Shown here in pieces: positions 6,503-47,449 of a DNA stretch of 64,000 nucleotides (position 1 is its first letter; each line of letters begins with the position of its first letter). Both the position numbers and the translations under genes were made by a program. The stretch is from Takakia lepidozioides (Eukaryota; Plantae; Bryophyta). Where the stretch lies: positions 30,752,001 to 30,816,000 of the forward strand of contig CM060733.1 of the NCBI GenBank assembly GCA_030704615.1, read 5' to 3'. The notes beneath the pieces are model-generated. The model made no database searches, had not been told where the DNA came from, and saw only the letters and a list, made by a program, of their open reading frames with translations.

Positions 6503-6514
6503 GCTCTGATACCA
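6503..6514 (-). promoter_or_regulatory. Primer binding site complementary to initiator tRNA-Met (TGGTATCAGAGC)
   Basis: + strand gctctgatacca immediately abuts the LTR-like repeat. Confidence 0.85.
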
Positions 6515-17167: not shown

Positions 17168-18147
17168 TGTTTGATTCAATATATACCCTCACAAATCCCT
17201 CCATGCCACCTCCCTCACTCTACGGTCACTATAGTAGATGAAGTAAAGCTGGATTTCAAATTAAAATTGCACACGCATGAACTAGTATGAATGCGCTCCA
17301 CTTCAAATTCTCCTCGCACCTCTCACCCGCACTGTACCTAACGTTCTCCCCACCCGGTCATCCCTTCTCCTTCTCTCGTGATCCGTTGCGACCTTTCAAA
17401 ACCTCTCTGTCCGAAATTTACCGGGACAGCTACAGGGAATTGACACAGAGCTACAGAACTCTTCTCTTCACCAACAAACAAACTACACTCGCATAATGTC
17501 AATTTAAGAAGCAAGGCACATCGCCTTCCCAACGAAGACTTTTGGGAGAGCTCCCGGGCGGGAAGACGACTGTTGGTTACATCAGATGGATGGATGAACG
17601 GGTTATCAGATGAACGGTCACAGACGTTGGATGGATGTGAAGTAGGTTGCGTACTTTTTCTTTGCAGCAGGAGTCACGTTACTAACTAGATATGGTGGCC
17701 ACGTGTTGGTCACACACATGCTACACGACATCGAGAGCAACACGTGATTACCTATGGATGAGAATGAAGTCGTCCATCCGGGTTTGTTTGTCTACCATCC
17801 CAGGTCATCGGAAACCAGGGGAATATACTAGGGGAATATACCACTTGTCTCATTCTATTTCTCTTCAAGAAGCGATTGTTCCCCTGGAATTGCAAAGCCA
17901 CAACTTACAAGCAAACATCCAATAGAGTGTGATCTGTCTTTCATATCACTTTCTGGTCACAATTGTTTTTCAAAGTCATCTCCTCACACATACAGCTCTC
18001 GCCTATTAATTGCTGAACTTTGGCTCTGGACTACAGATTGCATGCAAGTTACGCTGCATGCATTGGAGATTACAAAAAATGGGGACAAGCAGGAGCAACA
18101 CCTTCATGAAACAACAGCTATGGCACCAGCAGAGAATATCTCTCCTC

Positions 18148-19535
18148 CTACTGACATAAATCACAATTCCCTTCACATTGATAATACTTCTTCAGTGCTG
18201 AGTCTGCTTGTGGGCGGTTCTTCGTGAAGTCCTCCGCCATCTCAATTTCCTGAATCTCCTGCATCTGCTGCAGGAGCTTTCCAAGATGATACATATCTGA
18301 CGCCTTGGTATATAAACCACCATCTTCTAAGGTAGTCTCATCCCAATCTGCATGCATGATTCTTGGAGCCTCCTTATCACGTCCAGCACTTTCCATATCA
18401 ATAATGACCCACCTCGTCCGCTCAGGGCCATCAACTTTCACAATATTTTGCCACCGAAGATCACGGTGTGTGAAGTTGTTCTTGTGCAACTCTTTGAGGC
18501 CACAAAGAACATCATGGACTGCCGGCCTCACCTCGGTTTGTTGTGGCTGTGCTGCTGGGTCACCAACAGGGTTCAATTTCACCTTGTATAGTTGTTGGCG
18601 GGAACGTGTTGGTTCAGTCACAGCTTGCACCAACCATGGATTGCCTTTAATAGAGGCATAAAGTTTCTTCAGCAGTTCAAATTGGTCATCCTCCATCTTG
18701 GGCACAGATTTGAGAACATACGTTGGACCAAACTCAACCTGATTACCATTTCGCCGTCTCATTGTGCAGTATAGTGAGCCTGGGACACCAGAACTAGGTA
18801 GACGTGCAGCTAGCTGCTGCAACACAAGATACAACCTCATAACAGTCTGAACGAAGAGATGCCTGAGCCTTCGCACATTCAAATCATAAAGTATTGATAT
18901 CGATCTGAAAGATAGCTTCCCGTTCTTGTCTTGGAAAAGAACGAGCCACTGGAATCGACCTCCAGCGCAAGCCCCTCAAATGACGTATGGAATGTTCCCA
19001 TAGTAGAGAGGACTCCAGGTGCTCATTTTTTTGATGTTCTCATTCATAGCAACACTGAAATCTTTGAAATCTGTCTTGTTTTCCCATCTGGCAAGGACTA
19101 CGCCTCTCAGAAGTACTCGAAGGTCTGGCTTTTTCAACTGCAAATTTGCGGAAGCTGTGGTACTTTGGGCAATGCAATCCAACTTATAACTTAAGGACAA
19201 TGTATCTTTTGCTGCCACCATTTGATCCACCATCCTTAAGACGTTTGCTGTCATGTCAGCTAGCTGATGTGACATTGTTGCCTCCCGTGCAGTCAAATCA
19301 AAAGGCTGCCTGCATACTTCTGTAATATAACTTCTCAAGGCTTGCAAATTTGGCGTTTCTCCTGATCCAACTGTTTCGATTAGCGCTTGTGGTGGAAGCT
19401 CCACTGGAGTCGCCAAAACTGTCTCCAGGTCTTTCATATCAGGTAGATGCTCCAGTGGCCGCAACCAAGATGACACAAGAACCTCATTTGCTGCAGGCAT
19501 TTCTTCTGAATCCATGACTTCCGTTTCTTTGAGAT
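18148..19535 (-). pseudogene. Crinkler-like gene C effector exon: PD-(D/E)xK REase plus protein kinase, one in-frame TGA at 18976-18978
   Basis: KKPDLRVLLRGVVLARWENK, WSPLYYGNIPY, HRDLRWQNI, IIDME and SDMYHLG; ORFs 18976..19563 and 18148..18882 are in the same frame; phase-1 acceptor CAG|AT at 19535. Confidence 0.8.
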
Positions 19536-19778
19536 CTGACCTGAGCCTGCAGTCCAACACCAAAATACCAAGATACGAGCCCCATTACTGAAACACTACC
19601 AAAAGAGCCTCCTATGTTATCCACTGCAGCAACCCTGAACCTTAAACAACTGCTATTACACCATGGAGCTTGAAAATGTCACTCTGCCTTTCCCAATTCA
19701 CAGTACCACCACATACAAGCTTAGGAAGGTATGGAAGATGAAAGGCCCTCACAGAGTATGTCCTGGCCTTGAAAGAGG

Positions 19779-20306
19779 CCCTCCCACACTTTACACAGTC
19801 AATCTCTCCTCTTGCCCATGGTGATACAAGGAGGGAGGTAGAAGGTGCTGTAGATTCTTGGGAGAGCTTTGCCACTTCTGCTGCTGATAGAGTCATGGGA
19901 GGAAACTAATTATCTGTGGTAGAGTAGTAAATTGGTGGACCCATGAGATCAAGCTCAAGATTGCTGAGAGGCAGGCGCTCTATAAGGACTGTTGTAATAT
20001 CAAAGATGAAAAAATGCTCTGGTCTAGATACTACCAACTGCGTAAAGAGGTCAATCAGCTTGTAAGGGATCAGAAGAGGCTTTACTATGAGAAGTTGTAC
20101 AGTGACATAAACTTAACCCACCCTGGTCGTAATGACAAAAGATTCCGGTTGGCCTTACAGCCAATCATCATAACACCAACAATTGCACAGCCAATACAGG
20201 TACCCTACCTGGATCTTGGCAAGAACCACAACAGTGATAGACAATGTATACAGACTGGGAAAACGTAACACACCGAAGAGAAAAGAAGACAAGAACGCAG
20301 AACACT
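19779..20306 (+). repeat. Shared intron module R1 (copy at 34038-34572), containing a LINE-like fragment
   Basis: Near-identical to 34038-34572; + strand WSRYYQLRKEVNQLVRDQKRLYYEKL resembles a non-LTR ORF2 tether. Confidence 0.9.
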
Positions 20307-20453
20307 GAGACCTTGTGTTTCATTGACTGCCTAAACTACTCGAACTCAAGACAGAAAAACAAAGAAAAGCAACAAAAGCATGAAGAAAAGCAAAACCCTG
20401 CTACCTGCTGTAGGTGCTACAAAAGCTTTGTGAAGTATCCCCACAATAGCCAA

Positions 20454-21928
20454 CCCATGTTGTTGAGATGCATCTATCATGTAGTGCACAACCAGAATTC
20501 CACATATAAATAACAAACAACCGTGTCTTTCAAAGGACCCTCCTCATATTTTACTTGTTAACATGGATCTATCGAATGAATAAACTGCGTGTCTCAACCG
20601 TACACAGGATCACACACGGGATTGGAAGAAGCTGTTGAAAACCTGAGTGCACAACGCAGCCAAGAAACCAAAAAAATTGCAAACACTTGACTCCAAGCTA
20701 CGCATTGAACGAATCATTGAACAAATCAGCAACTGCAGCGGGTTCAACAATCAGCTGCCCAATTGTCTTGCAAGAATTCAAATGTGCCTGCCCATCATCA
20801 GAATTGCAGACAAAAAAACAAACGGGCTCAGACTGCCCTAGGCAACCCATCGACATTCACCAGACTCTCTCCATGACGCACTATCTGACACCCTAGCTAA
20901 TGGGTGAACACTGTCACAGAAGGTTCTGCAGCCAAGGCGGTTTTGGTTAACTCACATAAGTCACCAACAACCACATTCTGTCATCGACCAATTAACGGCT
21001 CAAAACATGAATTTCGGCTAGAGCTTTCTATCCTCTGAAGATGGTACTCAGCAAATCGTTAGGGTTTCAAATCTTCATTTGATTTTTGTTACGTCTCTTG
21101 CTTCTTGGTTGAACGGTGTTGTGTCTGTCTTCGCAGCCTACTTTCTTTGTGGGATTGTTGGTTATGGAAACCATGGTTGATGGTTTAGGGTGTCAGATAG
21201 TGCGTCAAGGAGGGAGTCTGGTGAGTGTAAGTTTGCAGGGTTTGCTACCAATGTGTGAAGAATGAGTTTATGTTCTCTCTTTAGTACTTTGATGCATGTG
21301 ACCTGCGAATCAGTAGTGTTGTTCAAACTTTTACTGTACATACTCTTGGGATGCCATTGAGCCCGTCCAAATCTATTACGGTTATGGTTATGGATGCAAA
21401 AAATCCAAGAGAGCTCCAGAGACACAAAGGAAGACTGCCTCTCCCTCACAATAAAAATAGAAGTGGATGCAAGGACGGCAATCACTCACAAGTGAACTAC
21501 CAAAATGACGGTTTAGAGTTAGGGTTTCAGGCCACACAACACTTTAAACCTGCCATCATCTGCCGCAATCTGACCGACCACTGCGCTTCAAGAGATTCAG
21601 AAGGGCTTGCCCTCTGACCTCGCACGAAAAGTGCCCACAAAGGTTCACGGCCAGACATTTCCAAGAAGCAGTGCAATGCATATAATCCTTGTGAAAACCC
21701 TTACTCCAAAACGAGTGTGTCGGCAACCAGAATTCCACATACAAATAATATGCTGCTCATTGGCATTTGAGATCATAATCAACCAAGGATTCTGAAGCCA
21801 TAACTAATATTATCATTTCCTCTTCAAAAGGAGCAAATGATCTGGTGACGATAAACTCTAAGTACTTGAACCTCACTATCAGCAAACTCAGGCCGCAGAG
21901 CCCTAAGAAACTCAGACCACCACAAGGA
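20454..21928 (+). repeat. Shared intron module R2/R3 (copy at 28658-30134, partial copies at 33567-33740 and 34975-35249)
   Basis: Direct comparison shows very few mismatches; internal 21058-21334 is inverted relative to 29262-29538. Confidence 0.95.
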
Positions 21929-21954
21929 AGTTTAGGGTTTAGGGTTTATATACC

Positions 21955-22204
21955 CCTACAGAACGCTAGGGCTCACTAAATGCTCTGATGAGCGATAGCA
22001 CCACACCACGTCAGACAAGAAGAACATCGAGCAAAGAACCTCTGTCAGCAGCTGCAAGTGCAAGTACACTTGAAGATGTAAGTCCATTGTTCACAAGTAT
22101 ATCCAAATCTTGGTCACTAATTTCCTCAAACTCCTCCGGTGGTAGCTTTGTCTCCAAAAGCTTTCGAACACGCTCACGCTTAGCCAAACCACAAGATGGT
22201 GTAA
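21955..22204 (-). pseudogene. Gene C header exon, SAM-like helical domain with two premature stops
   Basis: Acceptor GTGCAG|TT (phase 1); KLLETKLPPEEFEEISDQDLDILVNNGLTSSSVLA..DRGSLLDVLLV*RGVVLSLIRAF; donor position uncertain. Confidence 0.55.
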
Positions 22205-23276
22205 CTGCACATAACACGAAGGAGAAGGCCTCCTATACGCAAGGGCTGTAGGGGCGATCGTGATAAACATATTCTCATATTCTTGATCTGGTTTGCATTG
22301 CAGGATGGGAACGTCAGGTTTGAGGAGCTGGAAAAGCATGCACTGGAAGCAGGAGAGCCACTCATAGTTTCTGGCAAACAGATACAGTTCTCTTGTTCAT
22401 GTCTGCAGGAGTTGGCGGAGATGATATTCTACTCTAAATATGACGACTCCAAGTAGGCGCTTGGTAGTCAGAAAGTAGCCAGTGACATCCTAGTTGTGTA
22501 CAGTTGGCTGAAACAGGGAAAGGGGATTCTGTTACGAACATACAATATTGTAGTCAATGCTAGCTTCCTGGTTAGTCTGATCCTAATAATAGTCAATTTT
22601 CCCACAGAAACTGCTCAACCTAAAGTGACTCTACCCAAAGTGGCTTTGAGAAACTTCGGTTTCTCCAAAACAGCTCAGGGCACTCGAGCGTTAACCCTTA
22701 AGCGCCCAGTGCCCAATGTTGACTTTTTGAAAAAAGTGGACCCCAGCTCAGGAAAATGAGAATATCTCAGCGAAAAAAAAGTTTTTGGGAAATTTGACCG
22801 GACATTATGCTCATACCTACCCCTTCCAGACACCGGTAAATTTGCAGGCCAATCAGGCGAAAATCCGAGAAACGCCACCGTTGAGTGTGGGGCCCATTTT
22901 TTGGGCCCCTCCCAAAACAATAAGGGAAATTGGAGGAATATTGTTGCAACAAAGACCTCGGAGCTACATGAACACTAAGGCAAAAAGCTGGAGTAGCAAA
23001 CAAATCATTCAGATAAGGACTCAGTGAACCCCAATACTGCACAACCTCTCTTTGGACTGTCAAGCGACTCTCTACGGCTGGATCCTCAGTACAAACGTTT
23101 CATGGCTACCAACAACAAACCAACCCCCAAACACACCACTGCTTAGAAAAAGACAGAACACCACTACATAGAAAAAGTGTCGTAAGGAGGATACCCCCTC
23201 TTTGGCATCAAAGGTCTCCACATCAGTGCAGTAAGAAATCAACCATATCAATTACTGAACATAGAAGTATCTATAA

Positions 23277-25388
23277 TCAGAGAAGGCTATGGCTCTTGAC
23301 AAAGCATCCTCCAAGGCACATATACACATCTCCACACGCGTGACAAAAATACCTTTGACGCATACCGCAATGAACACACTTCCTCCTCCTACTAGTCTTG
23401 AGGGAGAAATGCACAGACCCCGGGTTGGGCACATCTGCCCCTGGCATTACTGTTCTCCTGGGAGGAACCCACCCCACAATTAGTCCCTTTGCAACCTCCA
23501 AATTGAAAAGCATGTGGCTAAGAGGAATGTGGCCCTTTCCCCTCATAAAACCCAGGTACAATATGTAAGCATTCACCAAATAAGTGTCAACTCCATGAAA
23601 GTACAAGCGGTGCCACCATTTATGGTCCCTGGTCTGAACAGAATAGTAACCCCGTAGCTGATCCTGAACATCCACTCCCCGCATATGCTGCTGGTAATGA
23701 ACCACAATAGGGGAGGTAGGCACATCACGTCTTGCCCCTTTGTGCCATCTTTGTATGAAGCAATCATGACCGACAGGGGAAATGGCAGTGGAAATCATGG
23801 TCACCAACTTGGCATCCATCCAGGCAATAGCGGCTACTTTGCCACTTATGTGAACACGATATTCCAGCCTACCTCTCTCACCCTTCTTCCCCAAATCAAG
23901 GCACGTAGGAAAACCCACTCGGGAGGTTTTTACTGTGCCAGTAGCATAGATCTGTTTTGCTGCCAAATCATAGAACAGGATAGGGCTACTGAAAAAATTA
24001 TCCATCGTTACAATATGGCCCTTACCCTCAAATCCTTCTAGTAACCTTGTCACCACGCCATATCCACTGCCATGGGTCATATCATTCCCATCATCCTTCC
24101 CAAGGTAAACCTCTAACTTCTGAACATATTTGGAACATGCACCACACAAACACCACACCTTCAGACCCCACTGCACAGGCTTCTTGCTCAGGTATTGCTG
24201 GATTCGGGCATATTTGCCCTTGTACTTCACCATTTGCTCATCCACAGTCAAATTCTGCTCGGGGCTCATGTAGGTGGCATACAAACCATTTAGTGCATGT
24301 AGCAACCACCTGGTTTTAGCTAACTTATCAAAAGCAGGGTCAGTGTCAATAGTGCATACATCCTTGTTGTCAACAAGGTGGAGGCACCTCAGAATTGTCT
24401 CATATCGGTTGCGGGACATAATGCGCATGATGGAAGGGCAATTGAAGAAGGCATTGTTGGCTTTCCAATACAATCTAGTACTAGGCAATTTTTTTATTCC
24501 CATGAGCATGTGAACAGCAAGCCAAGCCTTCAATTCACGGATGGTGATAGGGTACCACCATCTACCTCGTTTCAGGTTTCCATTCTGGTTTTCTGTCCTG
24601 GCATACAAGTTGGTCATGTTGCAAATTCGGCGCATGACCGATAGTGGCCAAAACAAATTGAAAAAATCAACTGGATTTGCTGAATCTCCAAAAGGCAAAC
24701 GAGGACCCGAATCCCCACCTAACCATGTAATGTCTGGCAATTCAGTAACAGAGAAGTTCCACATGTCATCACCAAACAACTCAGCAGGACCCCACTGCTC
24801 CCAATTGGGCGGCAAATCATATAATCCCACCTCACGCGTTGGATTCCCCATGTCAACACAGTAGTCCATCAAGTCAGGATTGTCGATGTCAACAAGGTCA
24901 TCATCTTCTGGATTATAGTCACAATCAGAATATGATTCACTATCATCTACTTCCCCCTCAGGCAATTCAGCTTCAGAATCCAACCCCAAGAGCTCAGGGA
25001 TAGTGCACAACATTGAATCATCAAGATTACACACAACACATGACTGTGACGATACCACATGAACACCAAGGACACCAAAAAAAGAGACAGTATAATTTTT
25101 TGTACCATTCAGGATGTCCCATGTCTTGTCTACCACAGTGCCATATCCAAATTCGTGGGCATTGCTAGATGATGCCACATCCTGAAGGTGCAGCTCAGCC
25201 ACTGCCACCTTCACTGTGGATCCCAAAATCCCTATGTCCTCCATAGTTTGGGAGTGACCAGCAGGATCACATAGCGGATTTTGAGAGTTGCGCAAGGAGT
25301 AGGTCGAATTGCCCATCTCCTCACTCATGAAATCAAAAGAGGGTTCAATACGATTACCTCTCTCCCTGGCCAGTTGTTTAAGCCTCAT
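23277..25388 (-). CDS. piggyBac transposase (DDE_Tnp_1_7-type, C-terminal Cys-rich domain), 703 aa, uninterrupted
   Basis: FFNLFWP, LMGIKKLPSTRLYW, MSRNRYETI, catalytic VDEQM / MDNFF / GVDVQDQ, KWWHRLYF and CVHC..CHAC..C..C..H. Confidence 0.95.
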   Translation of the reverse strand: MRLKQLARERGNRIEPSFDFMSEEMGNSTYSLRNSQNPLCDPAGHSQTMEDIGILGSTVKVAVAELHLQDVASSSNAHEFGYGTVVDKTWDILNGTKNYTVSFFGVLGVHVVSSQSCVVCNLDDSMLCTIPELLGLDSEAELPEGEVDDSESYSDCDYNPEDDDLVDIDNPDLMDYCVDMGNPTREVGLYDLPPNWEQWGPAELFGDDMWNFSVTELPDITWLGGDSGPRLPFGDSANPVDFFNLFWPLSVMRRICNMTNLYARTENQNGNLKRGRWWYPITIRELKAWLAVHMLMGIKKLPSTRLYWKANNAFFNCPSIMRIMSRNRYETILRCLHLVDNKDVCTIDTDPAFDKLAKTRWLLHALNGLYATYMSPEQNLTVDEQMVKYKGKYARIQQYLSKKPVQWGLKVWCLCGACSKYVQKLEVYLGKDDGNDMTHGSGYGVVTRLLEGFEGKGHIVTMDNFFSSPILFYDLAAKQIYATGTVKTSRVGFPTCLDLGKKGERGRLEYRVHISGKVAAIAWMDAKLVTMISTAISPVGHDCFIQRWHKGARRDVPTSPIVVHYQQHMRGVDVQDQLRGYYSVQTRDHKWWHRLYFHGVDTYLVNAYILYLGFMRGKGHIPLSHMLFNLEVAKGLIVGWVPPRRTVMPGADVPNPGSVHFSLKTSRRRKCVHCGMRQRYFCHACGDVYMCLGGCFVKSHSLL

Positions 25389-25737
25389 CGTGGCTGGCAG
25401 AAGACGTCTGGAAGTCAGGCCAAACCTCGAGCCTCAAAATGTCGTTGACCTCTGCGCTGAACCCAAGGGGGTCTCCTTCCTCCTTGCGATCTACCCAACC
25501 CAAAATCTCTGCACAATGACGCCTAAACAAGTAACGAAAGTTGGAGGGCTGTGGAAATCCAGGCCAACGCACACGAGCAGGTCTCTTCAAACACAAGAGG
25601 TAGTCCTCATTCAGGCACCCGACAATCCGCTCGACTTGCTCGGTTGATGCGCCCAGTGAGCGTGCCCACTTGGCAATCGATACAGCTTGAGTCTCCAAAT
25701 GCGCAGGTGCAGGGGGAGGCAACACACCCGAACCCAT
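25378..25737 (-). CDS. Small accessory ORF (119 aa) of the piggyBac, overlapping the transposase start
   Basis: ATG-initiated, inside the TIRs, same strand, 11-nt overlap with the transposase ORF; function inferred only. Confidence 0.45.
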   Translation of the reverse strand: MGSGVLPPPAPAHLETQAVSIAKWARSLGASTEQVERIVGCLNEDYLLCLKRPARVRWPGFPQPSNFRYLFRRHCAEILGWVDRKEEGDPLGFSAEVNDILRLEVWPDFQTSSASHDEA

Positions 25738-27059
25738 CTTATACTATGTAGCTTCAACCTTCATCCACCAATTTGCATATGCACACAAGGATAAACACAA
25801 AGATGAGCTACACGATGCCCTAACTGCGCATAGTCTAGCTCAGGTATCAAACAATGAACATTGCCTTGAATGCGCATCCTGAGTATCAATGCAAAGCCGG
25901 CCCATCCTCTCTCACAGCTATGGCTCAGTCTCTGTAGCGGTGCCACAATTTCCAAGTTTCCTCAACTGAAAGAGAAAGAGATAATGGAAGATGCAATCGG
26001 AGTAGACCACCAACGGCAACCTGTCAAGGCATCTGCAATGGCAACCTGCAACAAAGTATGGAACACGCGCGAACGCCACAACAGAGGAGATCACAGCACA
26101 AGGCAAAGCGCGGGAAGGAGAGAGACGACGCTGAAAACGCGGGAGCAAGCCAAAATCGCTGCAGAAGCAGACCCCACCTCCTGCGCAGCCAAAAATTGCA
26201 ACCCTAACAAAAAAAAAAAACCTAATCGCGTGTTGGAATCCTCACTGCCATGTGGCTGGCATCCTACCCTCCAAAAATCAGGTTAATCGGTTCAAATCCG
26301 AGAAAAACAGAGGGGAAAAACCAAAACCAACGGCCGAAAACGGGTCGAATGGGCGCTTAAGGGTTAAAGATCTTTGTGTATATCTCTTACATGTACTGAA
26401 CTGTCACCGAACAGTTTACCAAATACGAATGTATGAGTGTATGCAATTACCAGAAATAAAATCCTACCTATACAAGACCATCGCGGATCATAGAGCTCAG
26501 TTCTTTGTAGCAATACTCAGCAGACTAGACATGACTCAATCAGAGTGCGCCTTTCTAGAGTGCCTCGATCGCCCCCTGTCAGAAAGCTGGCCGATTTTGT
26601 CTCAATTAAAATGGGACCAAGGAAAACCAGAAAACTGTCCCAACATGGCTTTCAGCTGTGCACGCTCTCTCTTGCCATCTTCACTGCTGGTGATGCGACA
26701 AGAAAACCCAAAATCTCTCTACACCAATTTTGTCTGGATCAAAAGTTTTAAAATATATACAGCTTCACCACCACTTTTCAAAAGTTGGATGCTGTTGCAA
26801 ATTGACAACTCCCGGGGGCTTGGCTACATTTATCAAAGTATTTATCGAGTACTAGGACTTGCAATACAGAATTCAGGGGGGCAATGAGATAACCAGCGAG
26901 CTGCCAGATCAAGCGACTCTCCCTGTATAAGAAAGGCATTCTTTTAGCCTCCCGCATTTTACCAAATAACTTCAGGTGTAGCCAATAGAGTCATCCTCTA
27001 CAGTTTCATGTAATTTGTACAGGAGATAACCTGGTGGTTCAAGGTTCAAAGCCGCTGCC

Positions 27060-28402
27060 CTAAGCATCTTTCAATGCCTCCTCTGCAGTCCACTGCTTAG
27101 ACTTAAGACTGCTAATAAACCTCTGAGCAGTACCGCAATGTCGGGATTGCAGAAGTACTCCCAGCTGATACAAATCTGACTGGAGAGTGTAGTGGCCGTC
27201 CTCCAACATGGCCTTGCTCCAATCAGCAAAAGGCTGAAATCCTTCTGGCAATTTGAATGGAGATTCAGGTACCATTTCAAGGTCTATGAGCATGAACCCC
27301 TCCGCTGAAACCTGCACAATATTGGGCAACCGGATATCCCTATGGACGAGGTTTTCCGCATGCAAGACAGACAAAGCCGTTAACACGTCCCGAGCCAACA
27401 GCTTCATATCGTTCTCCAACCTCAACGTCGGGGAGTAGCCCAGCGGACTGATCTCAATATTATAAGTATGTCTACGATCCATTTCAGGCTCTGAAATTAC
27501 CTCCGGAAGAGAAGGGACTCCTCGTGCAACATTGTAGGCCTGCCGAATCAGTTCAAAAGTGGTCCTTTTCTCAATACAAACTTGGGAGGTTCCATATTGC
27601 CTTCCGAACACTGCTCGGCTGAAAGTATATCATCCTATCCCCACATTCTTCTTCAGAAAACATTGCCCGCCGGCCTGGCACTTCCGGGATTGACTACACC
27701 ATCTTCTTCATGATCTCATAGGCATTGCCAAGGCTGAGTAACAACCAGAGGCGGTCATAAAGGTTCGTGACATTAAGACATAGCTTGATTCGAACTGCCG
27801 TCTTTCCAATATAAACCCATTGGAAGTCTGTGCCTAGCCGAGAATGAATTGAACCTCCCCATAAAACGTCGGACTAAGTGGCCTCATCTTTCTCAAAATA
27901 TCCTCTTCAGCAGCAGCTAAGCTGGCCAGCTTGTCCTCACCAACCAGAAAAGTGCATCCACCGGCAATTCCAAGCATGTCAGGCCTCCGCTGTTTTCCAA
28001 TAGTTTTGGTGCTAGAAGTACCTGTCTTCCTTTCACAAGTATTGAACGAAAGCTTGGTATTCAAAGCAGGCAGGCAGAACCGGTCATACAAAGAGAATAT
28101 CGTCTTAAATTTTTTTCCCACAAATAGGGATACTTCCTGCTTTGATACTGGAGGGACAACATTGGCAATCAACAATCCTGATAGCCTCAGAGGGAGCTCT
28201 GAATCATTTGCCTCCACGATGAAGTCCCATGCCTGAGGGGGCAACTCCTGTCAGAGTCTCAAGTAGGTAATTTTGGACACAGGAAGCTTTCCGTGATCCA
28301 AAGGAAACAATGCTGTTGTTAGCTCACAAGAGTTTTGTGGGAGCTTGATAGGCTGAGGCCACAGCATAGAATTGATCCATACTCCAGAATTTTCAATCAA
28401 TT
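27060..28402 (-). pseudogene. Crinkler-like gene B effector exon: REase plus kinase, several stops and frameshifts
   Basis: Phase-1 acceptor CACCAG|AA at 28402; RRPDMLGIAGGCTFLVGEDK, LSPTFYGEVQFILG, HRDIRLPNI, LIDLE and SDLYQLG; stops at 28251 and 27834. Confidence 0.8.
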
Positions 28403-30622
28403 CTGGTGGAAACAAATAACAAATCAGTGAAGCATAGCAAGGCAGACCAGAACAGAGCAACAAGAAGCAAGGAAATGCACAATGGTGGTAATTATCATAT
28501 TAATGAAGTAATTAATTAACATATAAGACACATAAGATACGTGATGGTTCATCTGAAATAACAACCAAAGGAGCCTCCTCATCATCAAACTTTATGACAT
28601 AAAAAAAGACAAGCTCAGACTGCCCTAGGCAACGCGATCTCACACTCTAACCATCATCCCATGTTGTTGAGTTGCATCTATCATGTAGTGCACAACCAGA
28701 ATTCCACATATAAATAACAAACAACCGTGTCTTTCAAAGGACCCTCCTCATATTTTACTTGTTAACATGGATCTATCGAATGAATAAACTGCGTGTATCA
28801 ACTGTACACAGGATCACACACGCGATTGGGAGAAGCTGTCGAAAACCTGAGTGCACAACGCAGCCAAGAAACCAAAAAAATTGCAAACACTTGACTCCAA
28901 GCTACGCATTGAACGAATCATTGAACAAATCAGCAACTGCAGCGGGTTCAACAATCAACTGCCCAATTGTCTTGCAAGAATTCAAATGTGCCTGCCCATC
29001 ATCAGAATTGCAGACAAAAAAACAAACGGGCTCAGACTGCCCTAGGCAACCCATCGACATTCACCAGACTCTCTCCATGACGCACTATCTGACACCCTAG
29101 CTAATGGGTGAACACTGTCACAGAAGGTTCTGCAGCCAAGGCAGTTTTGGTTAACTCACATAAGTCACCAACAACCACATTCTGTCATCGACCAATTAAC
29201 GGCTCAAAACATGAATTTCGGCTAGAGCTTTCTATCCTCTGAAGACGGTACTCAAGAAATCGTAAAGGTTTGAACAACACTACTGATTCGCAGGTCACAT
29301 GCATCAAAGTACTGAAGAGAGAACAGAAACTCATTCTTCACACATTGGTAGCAAACCCTACAAACTTACACTCACCAGACTCCCTCCTTGACGCACTATC
29401 TGACACCCTAAACCATCAACCATGGTTTCCATAACCAACAATCCCACAAAGAAAGTAGGCTGCGAAGACAGACACAACACCGTTCAACCAAGAAGCAAGA
29501 GACGTAACAAAAATCAAATGAAGATTTGAAACCCTAACCCTGTACATACTCTTGGGATGCCATTGAGCCCGTCCAAATCTGTTACGGTTATGGTTATGGA
29601 TGCAAAAAATCCAAGAGAGCTCTAGAGACACAAAGGAAGACTCCCTCTCCCTCACAATAAAAATAGAAGTGGATGCAAGGACGGCAATCACTCACAAGTG
29701 AACTACCAAAATGACGGTTTAGAGTTAGGGTTTCAGGCCACACAACACTTTAAACCTGCCATCATCTGCCGCAATCTGACCGACCACTGCGCTTCAAGAG
29801 ATTCAGAAGGGCTTGCCCTCTGACCTCGCACGAAAAGTGCCCACAAAGGTTCACGGCCAGACATTTCCAAGAAGCAGTGCAATGCATATAATCCTTGTGA
29901 AAACCCTTACTCCAAAACGAGTGCGTCGGCAACCAGAATTCCACATACAAATAATATGCTGCTCATTGGCATTTGAGATCATAATCAACCAAGGATTCTG
30001 AAGTCATAACTAATATTATCATTTCCTCTTCAAAAGGAGCAAATGATCTGGTGACGACAAACTCTAAGTACTTGAACCTCACTATCAGCAAACTCAGGCC
30101 GCAGAGCCCTAAGAAACTCAGACCACCGCAAGGATCAGGTGCTTGTAAAAACAAAACAAGATATCATTATAGCGGAACATGCACTGAAATGACAAAATAA
30201 AATGTCCAAGGTGCTGGATTGGACATCAACATGCGACAGTTGCATCACGTGACGCACTAGCTGACACCCTGATGGGTGAACGCAGCGAAGAAACTTACAC
30301 CACACCTAGTTGCCAAGAGAGCGCGACCCTGAGTGCACATCCAGAATTCCACATCTAAATAACAAACAACCGTGTCTGCCAAGGACCCACCCAGGAACAA
30401 GAATTGCTAACACTTTCTAGTCCACTTTTTAGGAAAGAAATCTCACCTGCAGAATCCGCGGGTTCAAGGATGGTAAGAAGAGATGATTTCACAGCATCAT
30501 CGTGAATAAGAAATGAGCAAAAAGACATCTATCCAATAAAGTAGCGAAGAGTCTACAAATCCAATAAAGCGGCAAAGAGCCTACAAAACCTATCCAATAA
30601 AGCAGCTAGGAGTGAAACATAC

Positions 30623-30824
30623 CAGGAGCAGGAGCAGGAGCTCGTAGGAATGCGTCCTTCAGGCCTGCAACAATCGCACCATCTGTCCAACGTAGTGGGA
30701 AGTAGCGCTCTGGGTTCCCACCCCCATCCTCATAGCTAAAAAGACGCCCATGTATAACGCCCCCTTCCTCCTCAGCAAGTCCAGGCAGAGTCCAGAGTTT
30801 GTCCACCCAGCCACCCTGCGCCAT
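30623..30824 (-). CDS. Gene B header exon (MAQGGWVDKLW...GLKDAFLRAPAPAP)
   Basis: ATG at 30824, Ala/Pro linker end, strong phase-1 donor CCTG|GTATGT at 30622. Confidence 0.55.
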
Positions 30825-32214
30825 GTTGTCCAGGCTGACTGATGAAGGCCCCGGGAGAGCCACCGATGAAGTCAAACCCCAAAACCCTAAATCGCCCCAC
30901 AGCCGTAGAATCAACCAGAAAGCAAGTAGCACTGAGGTTGTAAAGCTCTCAGTTGCCACGCGCTTCCACCGTTTCCACGTTCGCTCGTCTCTGCTCTGAG
31001 TCCATTCAATCAAAGGCCAGTCACACTGCTATTGCAATCTACACCACATAACTCTCTTTTTCGTTACTAAGCTAGAAATCAGTCTATATGGCCATGGCGT
31101 CTCTCTGTCTTCTTCGAGTCCACTGACCCGCTCCACTTATTCTCTTGGTCATGCACCGGTTGTTGCTAATCCAGAACTCTATAAAACGCATCGCTTCCAT
31201 ATCCACATCTCTTGCCAGTAAGTAGTGTTCACAAAAGGCAGTAGCGCGGATGCAATATGAGTCTCCACGATAGGTTTAGCCAGCCCCAAGCGCCATGTTT
31301 AATTTAAGCTTACCGCTCTGCTTTAGCCTGAGCTTTTCGCAAGACAGTGCAGCATGCAAATTGGCAAAACCGCAAATGGCATCGCAGTTGGGCCATGTCA
31401 CAGGAGCAGCTGAACCCTCCCCAATCAGCTGCTTTCCATCCATCTACATACATTCATCCACTACGGGCAAAACTTTATTATACGTCCAAGTACTTGGGGT
31501 TCATACATCCATTGAGAGTACGATGAGATAGATGACGTCCACCGAATCACAGGGATGAAAACTGAATGGATGTGTCCCTACGGATGATAAAGTGAGCTCA
31601 TCCCTAGCGAAGCCTCTGCAGCCAGTACAATCCTTTCCCACTTTTTTCATCCTCTCTTCGCGCTCTTCCTTTCTTCTTGGTCCGCTTGTGAGAAAGGGTC
31701 CATTGCGTGTTACACTAGAGCTCGGAGGAGGATTTTGAGAATGTCTCTAAATCTAGTCTGCTGTTTGCTGTGAATGTAGCCGCAGAGTACACAACAAAAA
31801 CCAAAAAAAGACTCCGCTTGCTGTTGATACAAATACTACAAAAAACGAACCACACCTGAAGGTCTGCGTTTCTTGTGGTACTATCATTCACTAGCATTAG
31901 GTTGGCCAGAGCGGCACCCTGAAGGTCACCCACAAGGGTTTTCGGACGAAATTTATATCTTTATCCGGACAGAACTGTGGCCGTCTATTGAGTGCGATGG
32001 GAAGGCGCTAGTGTCGGGAGAAAACAGACCAAGATTCTGCGCCAAAGGAAGCAGGAAGCCATTGAAGGTGATCAACATAGCACCTTTGCTTCGACTTAAG
32101 CTTCCTAATAAACCACCAAGAAGGTTTTGAGTCTAAACAAGACTTCAGCTTCCTAATAAACCGCCAAGAAGACCTCAGCTTCCTAAAGTTCTGCATCTTT
32201 TACCAGACTACATA

Positions 32215-33539
32215 TCATGCATCAAGCAACTCCAGACACTCTGCTGCAGTTGGCCTTTGGTCTGGCACCTGATGCTTGCATTTCTCCATCAAACCCAAAA
32301 GCTTCGCATCCAGAATAATATTTGAAGTAGACAAAAGGTACCCAATGCCCCAGATGTCAACCATGGTATCATGAGGCCCACCTGTCATCTCCGGAGCATG
32401 TGAATTGATCTAGACGGTGGAGCTTGAAGCACTGATCGCTCTTTATTGCCTCATCAAGATCCACTAGTACCCATTATTCCTGTCACGAAGAACATTTTCC
32501 CACCTGATGTCTCTGTGCACGAGTCCTTTTCTGTGCAACCACTGCAGTGCTTCACACAAACATCGGAGACAGGTCATCAAGTCGTCATGGTTCTTTGGTT
32601 TTGCAACCACAACCCTCTGCACCACAATAGTTCGGTCTGAATCCCTTCTATGCATAAGAAGTTCCAGATTTGGACAAGATGTCGTCGCCTCATAGATGGC
32701 TACAACTTTCCTGTAGAAACCCTCATCTGGATAGGTCTTCTCTACCTTCCTCCAAGATGGACGAATAACTTTTCCACTGTTCCTCCGAATGAGAGGCATA
32801 TCCGACACTTCATCCTTTCCTTCGCAAACATCTTCCATTGTTTTCAGCAACTTCGCCATAGTTATGCAGGCCAGTACAAGCTTAAGTCGATCCTTTGCCT
32901 TTGATATATTGAATTGAATGAGATCACGGCACATAAGATCCTCCATGTGGATCCACAACCACAAGTAGCGCACAGAATGTCACTAGGGCTGCCCTCGCAT
33001 AGTACGCCATGAGAAAGGGGAGATGTTTATACGTCCAGTCCAATTTCGAAATCAATTCCTTTCTTGGATCACCAGCAGTTGTAGGGCCTTTCTCTTCCCC
33101 TCTCCACAAAGCATAGAACTGGAAACCAAACCTAACGACCTTGTCGGGCCTTGTTCCACTAGTACTCCCTTCATCAGACTTGTTTCGCTCTGCTAGCCAA
33201 GGGCCATCAAAGAAAAACTTAAGTGATTCATCAATAACAGTGTCCCAAAGGTAGTGAAAAGAATCTTCTGTATCAGCTGTGGGTGCGGGCATTGGAGGGT
33301 CCACAATAGCATTCAAAAGTGGAACAATCTTATAACACTCTTCATCAGGTCCAGCTAGTTTGAACAACTTGTCCTTGTTCGTCGGCAAAGAGTTCCACAT
33401 ATTCAAAGAAACAGGAAATCGAAGCCATCCTTCAATTCAGTTTCCAACAATCCCTGCAGCTCATCCACTTCGCAAAGTTGCACACGCTGCTCAACTATGT
33501 CCTTCCGAATGGATAAAGTATTGTCAACTCTGGGGGTAC
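32215..33539 (-). pseudogene. Crinkler-like gene A effector exon: REase plus kinase, frameshifted
   Basis: Phase-1 acceptor GTCAG|GT at 33539; TEDSFHYLWD, TSGTRPD..WRGEEK, ELISKLDWTY, HRDIRWENV, HAPEM, VDIWGIG and RPTAAECL*. Confidence 0.85.
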
Positions 33540-33566
33540 CTGACGAAGGAATGGGTTAGAAGACAA

Positions 33567-35249
33567 GCTGCTCATTGGCATTTGAGATCATAATCAACCA
33601 GGGATTCTGAAGTCATAACTAATATTATCATTTCCTCTTCAAAAGGAGCAAATGATCAGGTGACGACATACTCTAAGTACGTGAACCTCACTATCAGCAA
33701 ACTCAGACACAGCCCTGAGAAACTCAGACCACCACAAGGATCAGGTGCTTGTAAAAACAAAACAAGATTTCAACATAGTGGAACATGCACTGAAATGACA
33801 AAATAAAATGTCCAAGGTGCTGGATTGGACATCAACATGCGACAGTTGCATCACGTGACGCACTAGCTGACACCCTGATGGATGAACGCAGCAAAGAAAC
33901 TTACACCACACCTAGTTGCCAAGAGAGCGCAACCCTGAGTGCACATCCAGAATTCCACATCTAAATAACAAACAACCGTGTCTGCCAAGGACCCACCCAG
34001 GAACAAGAATTGCTAACACTTTCTAGTCCACTTTTTACCCTCCCACACTTTACACAGTCACTTCAAGATCTCTCCTCTTGCCCATGGTGACACAAGGAGG
34101 GAGGTAGAAGGTGCTGTAGATTCTTGGGAGAGCTTTGCCACTTCTGCTGCTGATAGAGTCATGGAAGGAAACTAATTATCTGTGGTAGAGCAGTAAATTG
34201 GTGGACCCATGAGATCAAGCTCAAGATTGCTGAGAGGCAGGCGCTCTATAAGGACTGTTGTAATATCAAAGATGAAAAAATGCTCTGGTCTAGATACTAC
34301 CAACTGCGTAAAGAGGTCAATCAGCTTGTAAGGGATCAGAAGAGGCTTTACTGGGAGAAGTTGTACAGTGACATAAACTTAACCCACCATGGTCATAATG
34401 ACAAAAGATTCTGGTTGGCCTTACAGCCAATCATCATAACACCAACAATTGCACAACCAATACATGTACCCTACCTGGATCTTGGCAAGAACCACAACAG
34501 TGACAGTCAATGTATATAGACTGGGAAAACGTAACACACCGAAGAGAAAAGAAGACAAGAACGCAGAACACTTTAAACCTGCCCTCATCTGCCGCAATCT
34601 GACCGACCTTAAGAAAATAATAGTCCTTTAAGTCTGGAAAACTTGGACATTCAAAGAGCTAGCAAAACACATTTTAGCACGAAACCCTAACAGCTCCGGA
34701 AGAATCTCGCCTACACGGTCCTAAAGCATACCTGCATGAGTATGTGGGCTCGTAGAACAACAGGTCATAATCAAGCAAAGATTCTGAAGTCAAGGTGCCA
34801 AGAATCTACATAACCTGGGCCCACGGTAAGGTGTGGCTAACATGCAGTAATCGTGCTGTGGTGCACACTTGCGACGGCAATAGAATTATTGATTTGCATT
34901 GTCATCGGGTGTCTAGAGGGCAAGTATGAAAATAAAGTAACCCCACATTCAAAGGGAGATCATTAACCGCACGTCAAGAGAGCTCCAGAGACACAAAGGA
35001 AGACTCCCTCTCCCTCACAATAAAAATAGAAGTGGATGCAAGGACGGCAATCACTCACAAGTGAACTACCAAAATGACGGTTTAGAGTTAGGGTTTCAGG
35101 CCACACAACACTTTAAACCTGCCATCATCTGCCGCAATCTGACCGACCACTGCACTTCAAGAGATTCAGAAGGGCTTGCCCTCTGACCTCGCACGAAAAG
35201 TGCCCACAAAGGTTCACGGCCAGACATTTCCAAGAAGCAGTGCAATGCA
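33567..35249 (+). repeat. Gene A intron: mosaic of modules shared with genes B and C
   Basis: 33567-34037 matches 29958-30431; 34038-34572 matches 19779-20306; 34975-35249 matches 21406-21680 and 29612-29886. Confidence 0.9.
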
Positions 35250-35635
35250 GCAAGCTCAACAAAATGGCAACTCAAACCATAGAACATGATCCGGCAACTT
35301 TTTCTTCAGCCATTCTCTGCGGGTAGGAGGCGCTGCCCGGAGCAATCTATCAACCAACAAAATGACTAGGAATATAAATTGGACGCTGCCATACGCTGGC
35401 TCTTATCAGACTGCTCGACAGCTGTATGAGCAGGCTGATTAGCATCGTTCCAGAAAATATATGCTAGAGAATTACCCTGGGTGATGCCTGCCTGCAGGAT
35501 ATTGCAGGGAAAGGAAACAAAGAGAACTCATTCATTCATCGGGAGTAACTACAGATAACCGGATAAGGAAAAACTTAAGTAATCTGCTGTAGAGCCATAC
35601 ATACGAGAAAGAAGTACAGATGAAGGCAAACATAC

Positions 35636-35912
35636 TTCCAGGTGGTTCTGAAAGAACATCGGAATGACCATCAACGGCAATGACTGCATTGGCGTCCAGA
35701 TTTAAGGTCTGTTGAATCTTCGTCCAGGTGAGGGTCGTGACACCATCTGTATCCACGGGAATAAGAACCCCTTGAATAGTTATAGTGCCTGACTTCAAAC
35801 CCAGGCGTTTGCCTAGCGTTATGAGACTGATTCTGCCATCTTCTTCGCTCAACATAGAGACTGGAGCCTCCACTCCCTTCTGAAACTTGATGATGGGGAC
35901 CATAGCTGCCAT
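35636..35912 (-). CDS. Gene A header exon, probably a ubiquitin-like (beta-grasp) domain
   Basis: MAAMVPIIKFQ..EEDGRISLITLGKRLGLKSGTITIQGVLIPVDTDG..IAVDG; phase-1 donor GGAA|GTATGT at 35635; fold is inference. Confidence 0.55.
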
Positions 35913-37219
35913 TTCTCAGAACTGATCAGCAGTGCAGAAGCTGTCCTGGAGAGCTGCAAACACCTCCAAAAATGCAGCACTACTTCCTTGATCAATCAAG
36001 ATTTCAAATGCAATGAAATGGTACTTTATAACGTCCGCAGAAAGCCACAAAGGAGAGACAACATACAATTTGCAAGAAAAGCATGAGAAACTAACCTCAA
36101 TTCTCCAGGAATGCCGTCAGCATAAACAGGCGGGGGTGGTGCTGTATATCCACTCTGATACGGCTGCCACAATCATTTAAGAGAGAAATAAGGATTCAAG
36201 ACCTGTCACATGTTAGTACAGGTACTATGATTACAGATTCGCTGTTAGCCTACAATTTTTCTCAAGCTAGCGTGAGAACAATTATGGGTCTTTGCAAAAG
36301 AAGTTCAAGTAGAGTCACAACAGATGGGGCGAGAGGAAGCACATGACTAGTGGTCCCCGTCTCAGAAGAAGTTCAGCGGTTTCCGTAACGTGAATCCTCT
36401 CACACAAGAGAAAAAAAGCTGTCACACCCGAGATTTGCAGAGAAAGGTGCAGGACGGGGCTCGGAAAGAGAGAAGCGCAGAGCAGCAGACCTCCACAACA
36501 CTGCCTGCAAGTAGCAGAGATTCAAGAAACAAGTAGTGCAGCAAGGAAAGCGGACGCGAACTGGGCAAGAGTGTCGTCCCATGAAGACGAGCCCTCTTTT
36601 ATTTCATTTTATTTTATTGTTTCATAAATGGCATTTTTTTTCTTTTTCTTTTTCTTTTTTATGAACAGGGGACAGAGGCCCTGGTGAAATTTATTCGAAA
36701 AGTAATCCAAAAATGGTGTGCCTATAATAATGAAGCTTTTGGGGCCTAAATTGTATAAATTTGCATACTATTTTAAGAACTATTTTGATAGTTAGTGTTA
36801 TGAGGTTTTATAACTTTAGAATTATCGATTAGTGTTTCATGAAGATGGACCCCTATTTTCATTTGCATGATGACTCTAAATTCTTTGGAATTGACCCATC
36901 CTATTGGCTTTACAAGTATCTGATAATTGTTTAAAGCTGTCTACAGAGTACATATTAGATAATTTGAGAAAATGCAATTTAAGCCAATGGTCGATTGACA
37001 ACTTATACTAGAATTGTCTTTATAAATGAAAAGGTTGAGCAAAATTCTATGCTCCACTATTGTCACTTCCACTCTAGGTATCTTCGTGTCTCCCAAAACT
37101 TTACCACCCCTCATTGACCCTAACACATCGACAAAATTATTCATAACATTATTTACTAATCATTGATCTGTAATGAAGCTGGCAGGACGAATATATATCC
37201 CTCAAGGTTGCCGGACATA

Positions 37220-38466: not shown

Positions 38467-39520
38467 TTAACCTTCTGTGAGCACATCCAGTGTCGGTGGC
38501 AATATGTCAAGAATTTTTGGTCTTTTCTCCCCTTGTTGGGCTTCCTCTTCCTCAAACTTCCTTTTCGTGCCTCCAGGTTTCTCCTCAGTGACCATAACCA
38601 GTTCATCGTCATCCCCATCTCCATTATTGACCTTGTCAGAGGAGGCCTGATATGAAGGAGTGCCTGGTGCAAGACTTCCGCAGAAGAGCTGGAAGGAAGT
38701 TCTCCTGTGATGAGCATCTCATCGGGTTCCTTTTCTTCATCAAATGACTCTCTGAGAGAAAGGAGCAAACAAACCATCCCATGTCAAAACTCCATGAATG
38801 TTTCAACTCAATCATGACAAGGTTCTCAAGAATGAACAAGTGAGCACCGCTTAACTGACGGCTGTTGTGAAAAGATCATAGACTTAGACTTCAGACAGTT
38901 AAGAGTCTCCTTATTACAAATTTTGACTATCACCATCACAACACACCTGTGCTTCACATGAAGGCTGCACCGAAATTCTTGTTGCGAGTCCTCCACGAGT
39001 AGAACCACGCCACTTGTGATAGGCGTGGGAAATGAGTCCAAACTCTGATCCAACCAATCAGCGCTGTTATGTATTGCGGTAAGCAATGCAGCTTTGGTCC
39101 CATTGACTCTGTGATTCACTCCTAGTCCATACTGCCAAACAGTCGGTGCAAGATAGAATAGTCCCAATGTTTACAGACCTTGTCAAGGATGGAGGCATAG
39201 TGAGCAGCCATGTCTTCCTCTAAGTCATCGCCAGTCTCATACAGAAGAGTGGAACCCTGCATAATGAGGGGAGAGTTCACACCCAGCTTGCGCTTCACTG
39301 CCTTCTCAATTATATCCCTCATTGTCGCTGTTGTAGTGTTCACCTCCAATACCAGTGGTGTCTGTCCTCCAAAGCCCCACACACCTAGACTTTTAAGTCC
39401 ACTTACTAAAGCTGGTGGCAAAAATTCATCACACCATCGTGGGCAGAACAAATGCAAAATACCTCAAAGCACACATAGCAGCGCAGGTTAGGTTCAGCTG
39501 GCTCTACTGGCACAATAAGG
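38467..39520 (-). pseudogene. SAE2: 3' portion of SUMO-activating enzyme subunit 2 with three introns; 5'-truncated and frameshifted
   Basis: PVEPAEPNLRCYVCFE|TPLVLEVN..KLGVNSPLIMQGSTLLYETGDDLEE..|SLDSFPTPITSG..VEDSQQE..KHR|ESFDEEKEPDEM..DDDELVMV..KRK; GT-AG introns 39362-39462, 39045-39178, 38752-38946. Confidence 0.85.
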
Positions 39521-47350: not shown

Positions 47351-47449
47351 ATTAGCAGCGCCTTGTTTTATGAATTGTGCTGCTGCCGCTGCTGTTTCCA
47401 GTTGACCATCTACCCACTTGTAGCCGCTGTGAGCTATTGAAGAAGGTGC

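What the first reader, a model, noticed from the sequence alone, without database searches (positions are those of the whole stretch)
19600..33747. Symmetric phase-1 micro-exons embedded in the shared introns
Seen on the minus strand, each bounded by AG and GT and a multiple of 3 long. GAGGCTCTTTTG at 19600-19611 has a homologue GAGGCTCCTTTG at 28566-28577; both read GGSF, differ at a synonymous site, and lie just upstream of the effector exon in otherwise dissimilar sequence. CACCTACAGCAG at 20405-20416 reads APTA. CACCTGATCCTTG(C/T)GGTG at 30124-30141 and 33730-33747 reads APDPCG. A possible decayed one (EPADSA, CAG|GTGAG) lies near 30447-30464. Inference: the shuffled modules are micro-exon cassettes that build a variable Ala/Pro/Gly linker, changeable by skipping or by recombination, similar in logic to schistosome micro-exon genes.
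Basis: partly seen in the sequence, partly recalled or inferred. Interest (0 to 1): 0.72.

Follow-up and report, generated by a model that had tools for sequence, protein, structure and literature searches.

The report
Shuffled linker exon in Crinkler-like pseudogenes
Three broken copies of a plant gene family that likely encodes nuclease-kinase defence proteins share patchwork introns; one 54-base piece matches a moss protein and is likely a real linker exon swapped between genes, but the proposed 12-18-base micro-exons score no better than chance and were not seen in spliced transcripts.

Summary
The six pieces are at the stated places; five have AG/GT ends, all are 3n. They lie in the introns of three broken header + nuclease-like + kinase (Crinkler-like) genes of a land plant. 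The 12-18-nt pieces are unproven: such AG..GT 3n pieces occur 24-38 times per intron against 25-30 in shuffles; the two APDPCG copies sit in one 474-nt, 96% duplicate. Contigs of two probable RNA runs join header B to effector B with no insert listed, and one reads through APDPCG as part of a long exon after a stop (short sides of 26-29 letters). In moss this linker precedes a C-type effector, here effector B, so exon shuffling through the shared intron blocks is likely. Contigs also show one header with three partners. Verdict: phase-1 module shuffling with small linker exons, probable; schistosome-like micro-exon cassettes, not shown.

The parts
35639..35912 (-). Gene C header, coding part of the exon (91 codons + 1 nt, phase-1 donor)
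   Evidence: Sequence; contigs of both runs end or turn loose at 35639 (table 8). No Pfam family; fold model unusable.
35954..36095 (-). 142-nt GT-AG intron in the 5' leader of gene C
   Evidence: Joint 35953-36096 in run X1, shorter side 47 letters; length.
35476..35487 (-).
   Evidence: Rank 1 of 24 in intron C, but matched in 35% of shuffles; covered unspliced by one contig.
33730..33747 (-). Candidate APDPCG of gene C, 190 nt upstream of effector C; unproven
   Evidence: Good acceptor, weak donor. In both runs the exon in front of the effector-C acceptor is another sequence, absent from the window.
32215..33539 (-). Effector C exon: nuclease-like region + kinase; broken by frameshifts and a stop (32464-32466)
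   Evidence: Acceptor marked by loose ends in both runs; 70-84% identical relatives incl. Ceratodon; Pkinase; frame changes.
30623..30824 (-). Gene B header exon, coding part (67 codons + 1 nt, phase-1 donor)
   Evidence: Donor used in two joints and one loose end; no Pfam family.
30447..30500 (-).
   Evidence: Ungapped match to the Ceratodon linker, score 53 against shuffle maxima 43 (n=300) and 45 (n=1000); donor is the best of 193 GT in the intron; 122 nt after the header donor. Not seen spliced in contigs.
30095..30328 (-). Alternative downstream exon (at least 234 nt) with a stop after 7 codons; would give a header-only 74-aa product; includes APDPCG as non-coding sequence
   Evidence: Run X2 only: joint 30327-30622 (GT..AG, side 29) and a contig with 0 differences over 30095-30327; length.
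30124..30141 (-). Candidate APDPCG of gene B; unproven
   Evidence: read through in contigs of both runs (records 8 and 12).
28566..28577 (-). Candidate GGSF of gene B; 5' part of a 27-nt block homologous to gene A; unproven
   Evidence: weak splice sites; also the end of a 68-nt element whose other two copies have no GT there.
28541..28552 (-). Rival 12-nt candidate (DEPS) next to GGSF; unproven
   Evidence: Rank 1 of 38, matched in 10.5% of shuffles; but the T of its donor differs in contigs of both runs (place 28539) and its gene-A counterpart is 11 nt with a 30-nt intron.
27060..28402 (-). Effector B exon: nuclease-like region + kinase; in-frame stops (28251-28253, 27834-27836) and frameshifts
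   Evidence: Acceptor used in joint 28402-30623 in both runs; Pkinase.
21918..21947 (-). 5' break of gene A: cut-off APDPCG copy (21918-21928) next to plant telomere-like repeats; header absent
20405..20416 (-). Candidate APTA of gene A; unproven
   Evidence: rank 1 of 30; matched in 78% of shuffles. No reads were laid on gene A.
19600..19611 (-). Candidate GGSF of gene A; would need a 53-nt intron; unproven
18148..19546 (-). Effector A exon: nuclease-like region + kinase; stop at 18976-18978, probable frameshift near its start
   Evidence: Acceptor by score only; Pkinase.
29958..30431 (-). Shared intron block (= 33567-34037, 96.2%; part = 21752-21928); likely crossover zone between B- and C-type genes
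28655..30134 (-). Intron blocks shared by B and A (620 nt 97.6%; 595 nt 98.8%; 277 nt inverted, 98.6%); 275 nt of it also in C at 34975-35249 (99.3%)
34038..34572 (-). Block shared by C and A (19779-20306, 96.3%); retro-element-like by my recall, no Pfam hit

Best explanation
The region holds three broken copies of a plant gene family, likely Crinkler-type (header + predicted restriction-type nuclease + kinase), whose modules end in phase-1 splice sites and are likely re-paired by recombination inside near-identical intron blocks, with one 54-nt piece likely a true linker exon and the 12-18-nt pieces most likely intron sequence or decayed exons. Shown: phase-1 header donors and effector acceptors; introns made of the same 96-99% blocks in different order while headers and effectors do not align with each other; contigs with header B joined to three different partners and effectors B and C fed by upstream sequences absent from the window; the 54-nt peptide matches a moss homologue's linker. 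Inferred: gene B is a hybrid whose 5' part (header B, 54-nt exon, shared block) came from a gene with a C-type effector, the crossover lying in the block that B and C share; because every junction is phase 1, any such crossover keeps the frame. Inferred: with the 54-nt exon's acceptor dead in this copy, the header splices on to effector B or to a nearer acceptor at 30328 that ends the frame. My odds that each small piece is or was an exon: 54-nt 0.85, APDPCG 0.4, APTA 0.3, GGSF 0.3, SITQ 0.3, DEPS 0.2.
For: Kinase domains in all three effectors; Ceratodon relative at 70%; Atlas neighbours are unnamed kinases of plants, algae, fungi and rotifers (a lead). Block map; local DNA scores among the five header and effector exons only 19-31. 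Joints 28402-30623 (both runs) and 30327-30622 (X2), both GT..AG; loose ends at 30621 (both runs, up to 60 letters), 28406 (202 letters) and 33540 (both runs); the two loose ends that I searched are not in the window. Of 8 joints, 6 do not end in GT..AG and fall in the intron blocks, as mosaic paralogues would give. 54-nt exon. Chance tests for the short pieces.
Against: The two splice joints have short sides of 26 and 29 letters at 80% likeness, under the tool's own bar of 30-31, and are marked 'between: not known'; the runs are only guessed to be RNA, hold unspliced intron contigs, and the contigs may come from paralogues with other introns. A micro-exon spliced on both sides shares no 31-letter word with its intron, and 76 and 32 loose ends were not shown, so inclusion with other partners could be hidden. 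The nuclease domain rests on a recalled PD..ExK motif; the fold failed. APTA and APDPCG rank at or near the top of their introns and lie 190 nt or less from flanking exons in C, as real small exons would. No genome of this organism was held.
Confidence: 0.62

Rival explanations
1. One reading: all listed 12-18-nt pieces are working symmetric micro-exons that are skipped or swapped to build a variable linker.
For: One real small phase-1 exon exists, so the gene plan allows others. In the inferred ancestor APDPCG sits between the 54-nt exon and effector C, where Ceratodon has a 12-residue Gly/Ala/Pro/Ser spacer. APTA ranks 1 of 30, APDPCG 2 of 38 and 3 of 24. GGSF keeps AG, GT and length in two old homologous copies. 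A direct header-effector joint can be read as skipping.
Against: No excess over shuffles in 2 of 3 introns and no single piece beyond chance; no joint with such an insert in tables 5c; APDPCG read through in contigs of both runs; none matches the moss spacer (ranks 16-186 of 262); the exon seen before effector C is another sequence; gene A's GGSF needs a 53-nt intron.
Confidence: 0.22
2. There are no small linker exons at all: the genes are two-exon header-effector genes, and the 54-nt stretch is a remnant of a longer exon or a captured fragment inside a patchwork intron.
For: Header B joins effector B without it in both runs; its acceptor is not AG; in Ceratodon the matching peptide is preceded by more shared sequence in all annotated isoforms, so it may be part of a longer exon there.
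Against: The match ends exactly at the best donor of the intron and starts exactly behind a T-rich tract, at 3n length and phase 1.
Confidence: 0.1
3. For the GGSF block only: the conserved 27 nt are the 3' end of an intron (ending TTTCAG) in front of an 11-12-nt exon or a decayed exon start, or a microhomology scar of recombination, not a GGSF exon.
For: The likeness runs to TTTCAG and again to GTATCTT; this acceptor scores 7.6 against -3.1 for GGSF; gene B's copy is also the end of a 68-nt element whose other copies lack the GT.
Against: The 12-nt piece loses its donor T in contigs of both runs; gene A's counterpart is 11 nt with a 30-nt intron.
Confidence: 0.45

Closest known systems
CR (Crinkler-RHS-type) proteins, REase + kinase class (Zhang et al. 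2016, seen only through the review PMC5289972, passages and section 11)
   Same: N-terminal header, then a region with a recalled PD..ExK motif, then a kinase (Pkinase, Pkinase_fungal); tandem, decayed copies; header and C-terminal part re-paired. The review says such proteins occur in land plants and that the end of the header is thought to be a recombination hot spot.
   Different: Here the exchange zone is a 2.1-2.4-kb phase-1 intron of shared blocks with at least one small linker exon; the review has no occurrence of 'intron'. Headers match no Pfam family; nuclease fold not confirmed.
Schistosome micro-exon genes (PMC10526429, passages seen)
   Same: Short exons of 3n length between longer introns; possible variation by exon choice.
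   Different: MEGs have 10-20 exons of 6-81 nt that make up the protein, with a signal peptide. Here at most 3-4 candidates a gene, about 2-5% of the coding length, none of 12-18 nt shown spliced.
Plant microexons of 15 nt or less (PMC8831610, abstract and passages seen)
   Same: Size of the candidates; retained flanking introns are common there too, which fits the many unspliced contigs.
   Different: [quoted passage not shown] It reports only about half of plant microexons as 3n and most as usually included, not as skipping cassettes.
Ceratodon purpureus hypothetical protein M758_10G097900 / KC19_10G100100
   Same: 70% identical to effector C over the region searched; carries the peptide of the 54-nt exon 12 residues before the effector start.
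   Different: No header like B or C in its 7 named protein records; in the window the 54-nt exon lies in the gene with effector B.
Classical symmetric (phase 1-1) exon shuffling (recalled, textbook)
   Same: All junctions examined are phase 1, so crossovers in introns keep the frame.
   Different: Here the introns themselves are 96-99% shared patchworks between otherwise unalignable genes, pointing to recent, repeated exchange within one family.

Membership tests
CR (Crinkler-RHS) REase + kinase proteins | C-terminal protein kinase domain | tested here: met
   Pkinase in 3 of 3 effectors, E 2.5e-05 to 3.6e-07, each under the curated cut-off as broken pieces; above it in whole relatives.
CR (Crinkler-RHS) REase + kinase proteins | Restriction-endonuclease-fold domain before the kinase | tested here: inconclusive
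   PD..(G/W)E.K motif seen by eye in all three (motif recalled); no Pfam hit; model of relative P0001 had mean pLDDT 37.5, so no fold search was run.
CR (Crinkler-RHS) REase + kinase proteins | Small N-terminal header domain (ubiquitin-like or helical) | tested here: inconclusive
   67- and 91-residue N-terminal exons spliced in frame (for B); no family; pLDDT 48.6; one weak unnamed relative of header C.
CR (Crinkler-RHS) REase + kinase proteins | Headers and C-terminal parts recombine | tested here: met
   Header B with three partners, effectors B and C with other upstream sequences in contigs; shared intron blocks. Contig evidence only.
CR (Crinkler-RHS) REase + kinase proteins | Toxic or nucleic-acid-targeting activity | not testable with these tools
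   All three copies here are broken.
Schistosome micro-exon genes | 10-20 very short exons per gene | tested here: not met
   At most 3-4 candidates a gene; definition from PMC10526429.
Schistosome micro-exon genes | Short exons encode most of the protein | tested here: not met
   30 of about 1630 nt in C, 84 of about 1630 nt in B (lengths).
Schistosome micro-exon genes | Short exons mostly multiples of three | tested here: inconclusive
   True of the pieces picked, but 3n pieces are not in excess in 2 of 3 introns.
Schistosome micro-exon genes | Isoforms by alternative use of the short exons | tested here: inconclusive
   Alternative partners of header B seen, none a 12-18-nt piece; tables cut, contigs only.
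Schistosome micro-exon genes | N-terminal signal peptide | not tested
   No predictor run.
Plant microexons (15 nt or less) | Junction reads on both sides | not testable with these tools
   Only assembled contigs were on offer.
Plant microexons (15 nt or less) | Conserved in other species | tested here: not met
   12-18-nt pieces do not match the Ceratodon spacer; only the 54-nt exon does. One relative only.

The most novel reading that the evidence does not exclude
A non-seed plant runs a combinatorial toxin-diversifying system: phase-1 header, linker and micro-linker exons sit in introns that act as shared recombination platforms, splicing picks among linkers, and a poison exon in the shared block makes header-only decoys or switches the toxin off.
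Probability: 0.2. Interest if true: 0.72.

Novelty: new variant of a known kind. Interest (0 to 1): 0.42.

Why it matters
Crinkler-type genes are thought to diversify by swapping header and toxin halves, but the plant members are barely studied. This locus suggests a concrete route in a plant: frame-safe crossovers in shared phase-1 introns, with a conserved small linker exon as a third movable part and a header-only isoform as a possible off-switch. That makes header/effector shuffling directly testable in moss genomes.

Tried and rejected
No own genome held. Header B and header C as queries for longer proteins: 0 hits among 63 and 235 candidates (weak by the tool's own note). Header C against 1.84 billion representatives: 2 weak hits, one a repeat protein. 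Exact 30-letter APDPCG-region pattern in metagenome contigs: 0; effector alignment in metagenome and viral contigs: 144 and 47 pattern hits, none confirmed. No run is on record as RNA; X3 and X4 gave 0 laid records: no evidence either way. Folds of header C and of P0001 were too poor to search. Rfam on 17500-36500: 0. A second likeness to the moss spacer (PLARVSDSASW, near 29075-29107) scored 33, inside the shuffle range, rejected. Longer versions of the 54-nt exon from upstream AGs do not keep phase 1 (read), rejected. One search crashed before intron C and was replaced. Zhang et al. 2016 could not be opened, so it and its supplements, which may list plant headers and gene structures, were not seen. 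Paper searches (listings only, apart from the three papers named) showed no account of intron-based shuffling or linker exons in plant Crinkler-like genes; one gave 0 papers, 68 one oomycete paper; subscription journals are not covered. Five look-ups of earlier scan findings (19, 22, 51, 52, 53) gave one unrelated note.
Full report
Setting. The window is eukaryotic and plant-like: PPR repeats, a piggyBac-type transposase, and a closest named relative in the moss Ceratodon. No genome is held. Between 18.1 and 36.1 kb lie three minus-strand genes, here A (effector 18148-19546, header lost), B (header 30623-30824, effector 27060-28402) and C (header 35639-35912, effector 32215-33539). Each effector ends in a kinase domain and has, before it, a PD..ExK-type motif that I recall as typical of restriction-type nucleases. 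All three carry stops or frameshifts. This is the layout of the REase + kinase class of Crinkler-RHS proteins as summarised in PMC5289972; the nuclease fold and header folds could not be confirmed.

The observation. As a class they are not beyond chance: 30, 38 and 24 such 12-18-nt pieces per intron against 30, 27 and 26 in 200 shuffles each. By my recalled splice weights APTA ranks 1 of 30 and APDPCG 2 of 38 and 3 of 24, which is mildly in their favour, but shuffles give an equal piece in 53-78% of cases; GGSF ranks 9 of 30 and 16 of 38. The APDPCG pair is one 474-nt duplicate at 96%, so shared borders say nothing. The GGSF pair is truly homologous (23 of 27 columns; 4 of 2000 shuffles) but the likeness continues through TTTCAG and a later GTATCTT, which fits an acceptor and donor around a neighbouring 11-12-nt piece as well as it fits a GGSF exon. 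Neither fits gene A, where the introns would be 53 or 30 nt, against 142 nt for the one intron measured from a long-sided joint.

RNA. Two runs of two studies, guessed to be RNA and kept as contigs, hold 38-39% of the words; their GT..AG joints show spliced molecules. On gene B (65 and 97 records laid) 8 joints are listed. Two are GT..AG: header B to effector B (both runs, in frame, side 26, one letter fitting both sides, no insert in table 5c) and header B to an acceptor at 30328 (X2, side 29), whose contig runs with 0 differences to 30095, through APDPCG, after a stop 7 codons in (74 residues in all). Both sides are under the tool's bar of 30-31 letters and are marked 'between: not known'. 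Header B also continues into a third sequence of at least 60 letters (both runs), effector B is also fed by another 202-letter sequence (X1), and effector C is preceded in both runs by an exon ending STTDTSKGSG rather than APDPCG (141 and 118 records laid, table 5c empty). The two loose ends that I searched are absent from the window. The other 6 joints are not splice-like and fall within the shared blocks, as mosaic paralogues would give.

The real small exon. A search of the Ceratodon protein P0007 against the window gave, besides the effector exons, a weak hit at 30501-30436 (E=0.36). It covers a 54-nt stretch, 30500-30447, that begins behind a T-rich tract, is open in phase 1 and ends at the best of 193 GT donors in intron B. 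Its peptide DDAVKSSLLTILEPADSAG aligns without gaps to the moss DDAVRSSLLALRQRDNSAG, 11 of 19 identical, two of these being junction codons. Tested afterwards with the 36 pre-effector residues of the moss protein against the sense frames of all three introns, the score is 53; 0 of 300 intron shuffles and 0 of 1000 query shuffles reach it (maxima 43, 45). The acceptor reads ACG in this copy. In moss it lies 12 residues before a C-type effector; here it lies in the gene with effector B, 15 nt upstream of the block that B shares with C. The simplest reading is a crossover in that block. The moss spacer of 12 residues could be the counterpart of APDPCG by position, but no candidate matches it in sequence (named pieces rank 16 to 186 of 262).

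How it likely works. Shown: header donors and effector acceptors are phase 1; the introns are the same 275-620-nt blocks at 96-99% in different order and one in different orientation, while the five header and effector exons do not align at DNA level; several pairings exist in contigs. Inferred: ectopic recombination or template switching in the blocks re-pairs header, linker exon and effector without breaking the frame; many products decay, as the three here have. Inferred: the 30328 exon is either cryptic splicing past a dead acceptor or a regulated header-only form; one run only. The 12-18-nt pieces may be further linker exons (odds 0.2-0.4 each) but nothing here shows it.

Comparison. It works like header/toxin shuffling in Crinkler-RHS genes plus textbook phase-1 exon shuffling. 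It is not a schistosome-type micro-exon gene: those have 10-20 short exons that make up a secreted protein (PMC10526429). Plant microexons are common and about half are 3n (PMC8831610), so a few here would not be remarkable alone. Searches showed no paper on intron-based shuffling in plant Crinkler-like genes; Zhang et al. 2016 itself could not be read.

Verdict. Observation partly confirmed; interpretation partly supported. New variant of a known kind; interest 0.42. The bold reading, a combinatorial linker and decoy system, has probability about 0.2.

Noticed in passing
window 36006-36045: A 40-nt stretch inside the 142-nt leader intron of gene C is shared by many different contigs (8-19 per loose end, highest depth of the stretch); single copy in the window, no Rfam match. 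Perhaps a family-wide intron motif or a small repeat.
   Followed up: partly
window 30095-30328 (and the same acceptor at 33934 in gene C): Stop-containing alternative exon inside the shared block; would give a header-only product; seen in one run.
   Followed up: partly
window 21929-21947; 29529; 21060: Plant telomere-like words sit at the 5' break of gene A and at both ends of the 277-nt inversion; 16 of the window's 28 such 7-mers lie in 19500-35700, partly through duplicated blocks.
   Followed up: partly
window 21058-21334 and 29262-29538: A 277-nt intron block is inverted between genes A and B at 98.6% identity.
   Followed up: no
   Followed up: partly
window 23277-25433: Uninterrupted 718-codon piggyBac-type transposase frame (DDE_Tnp_1_7, E 1.6e-79) between genes A and B.
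   Followed up: no
window 6514-7571 and 10656-11721: About 1-kb inverted repeats (96-97%) enclosing 3 kb with a Mutator-like frame by my recall; probably a DNA transposon.
   Followed up: no
window 47352-48557: Degenerate PPR repeat gene.
   Followed up: no
window 39122-39463: Exon-like piece of a SUMO/ubiquitin-activating enzyme (UAE_UbL).
   Followed up: no
window 19500-19546 and loose end at 28406: An SKKRK basic motif, like a nuclear localisation signal (recalled), opens effector A in phase 1 and also ends the sequence that feeds effector B in a paralogue.
   Followed up: no
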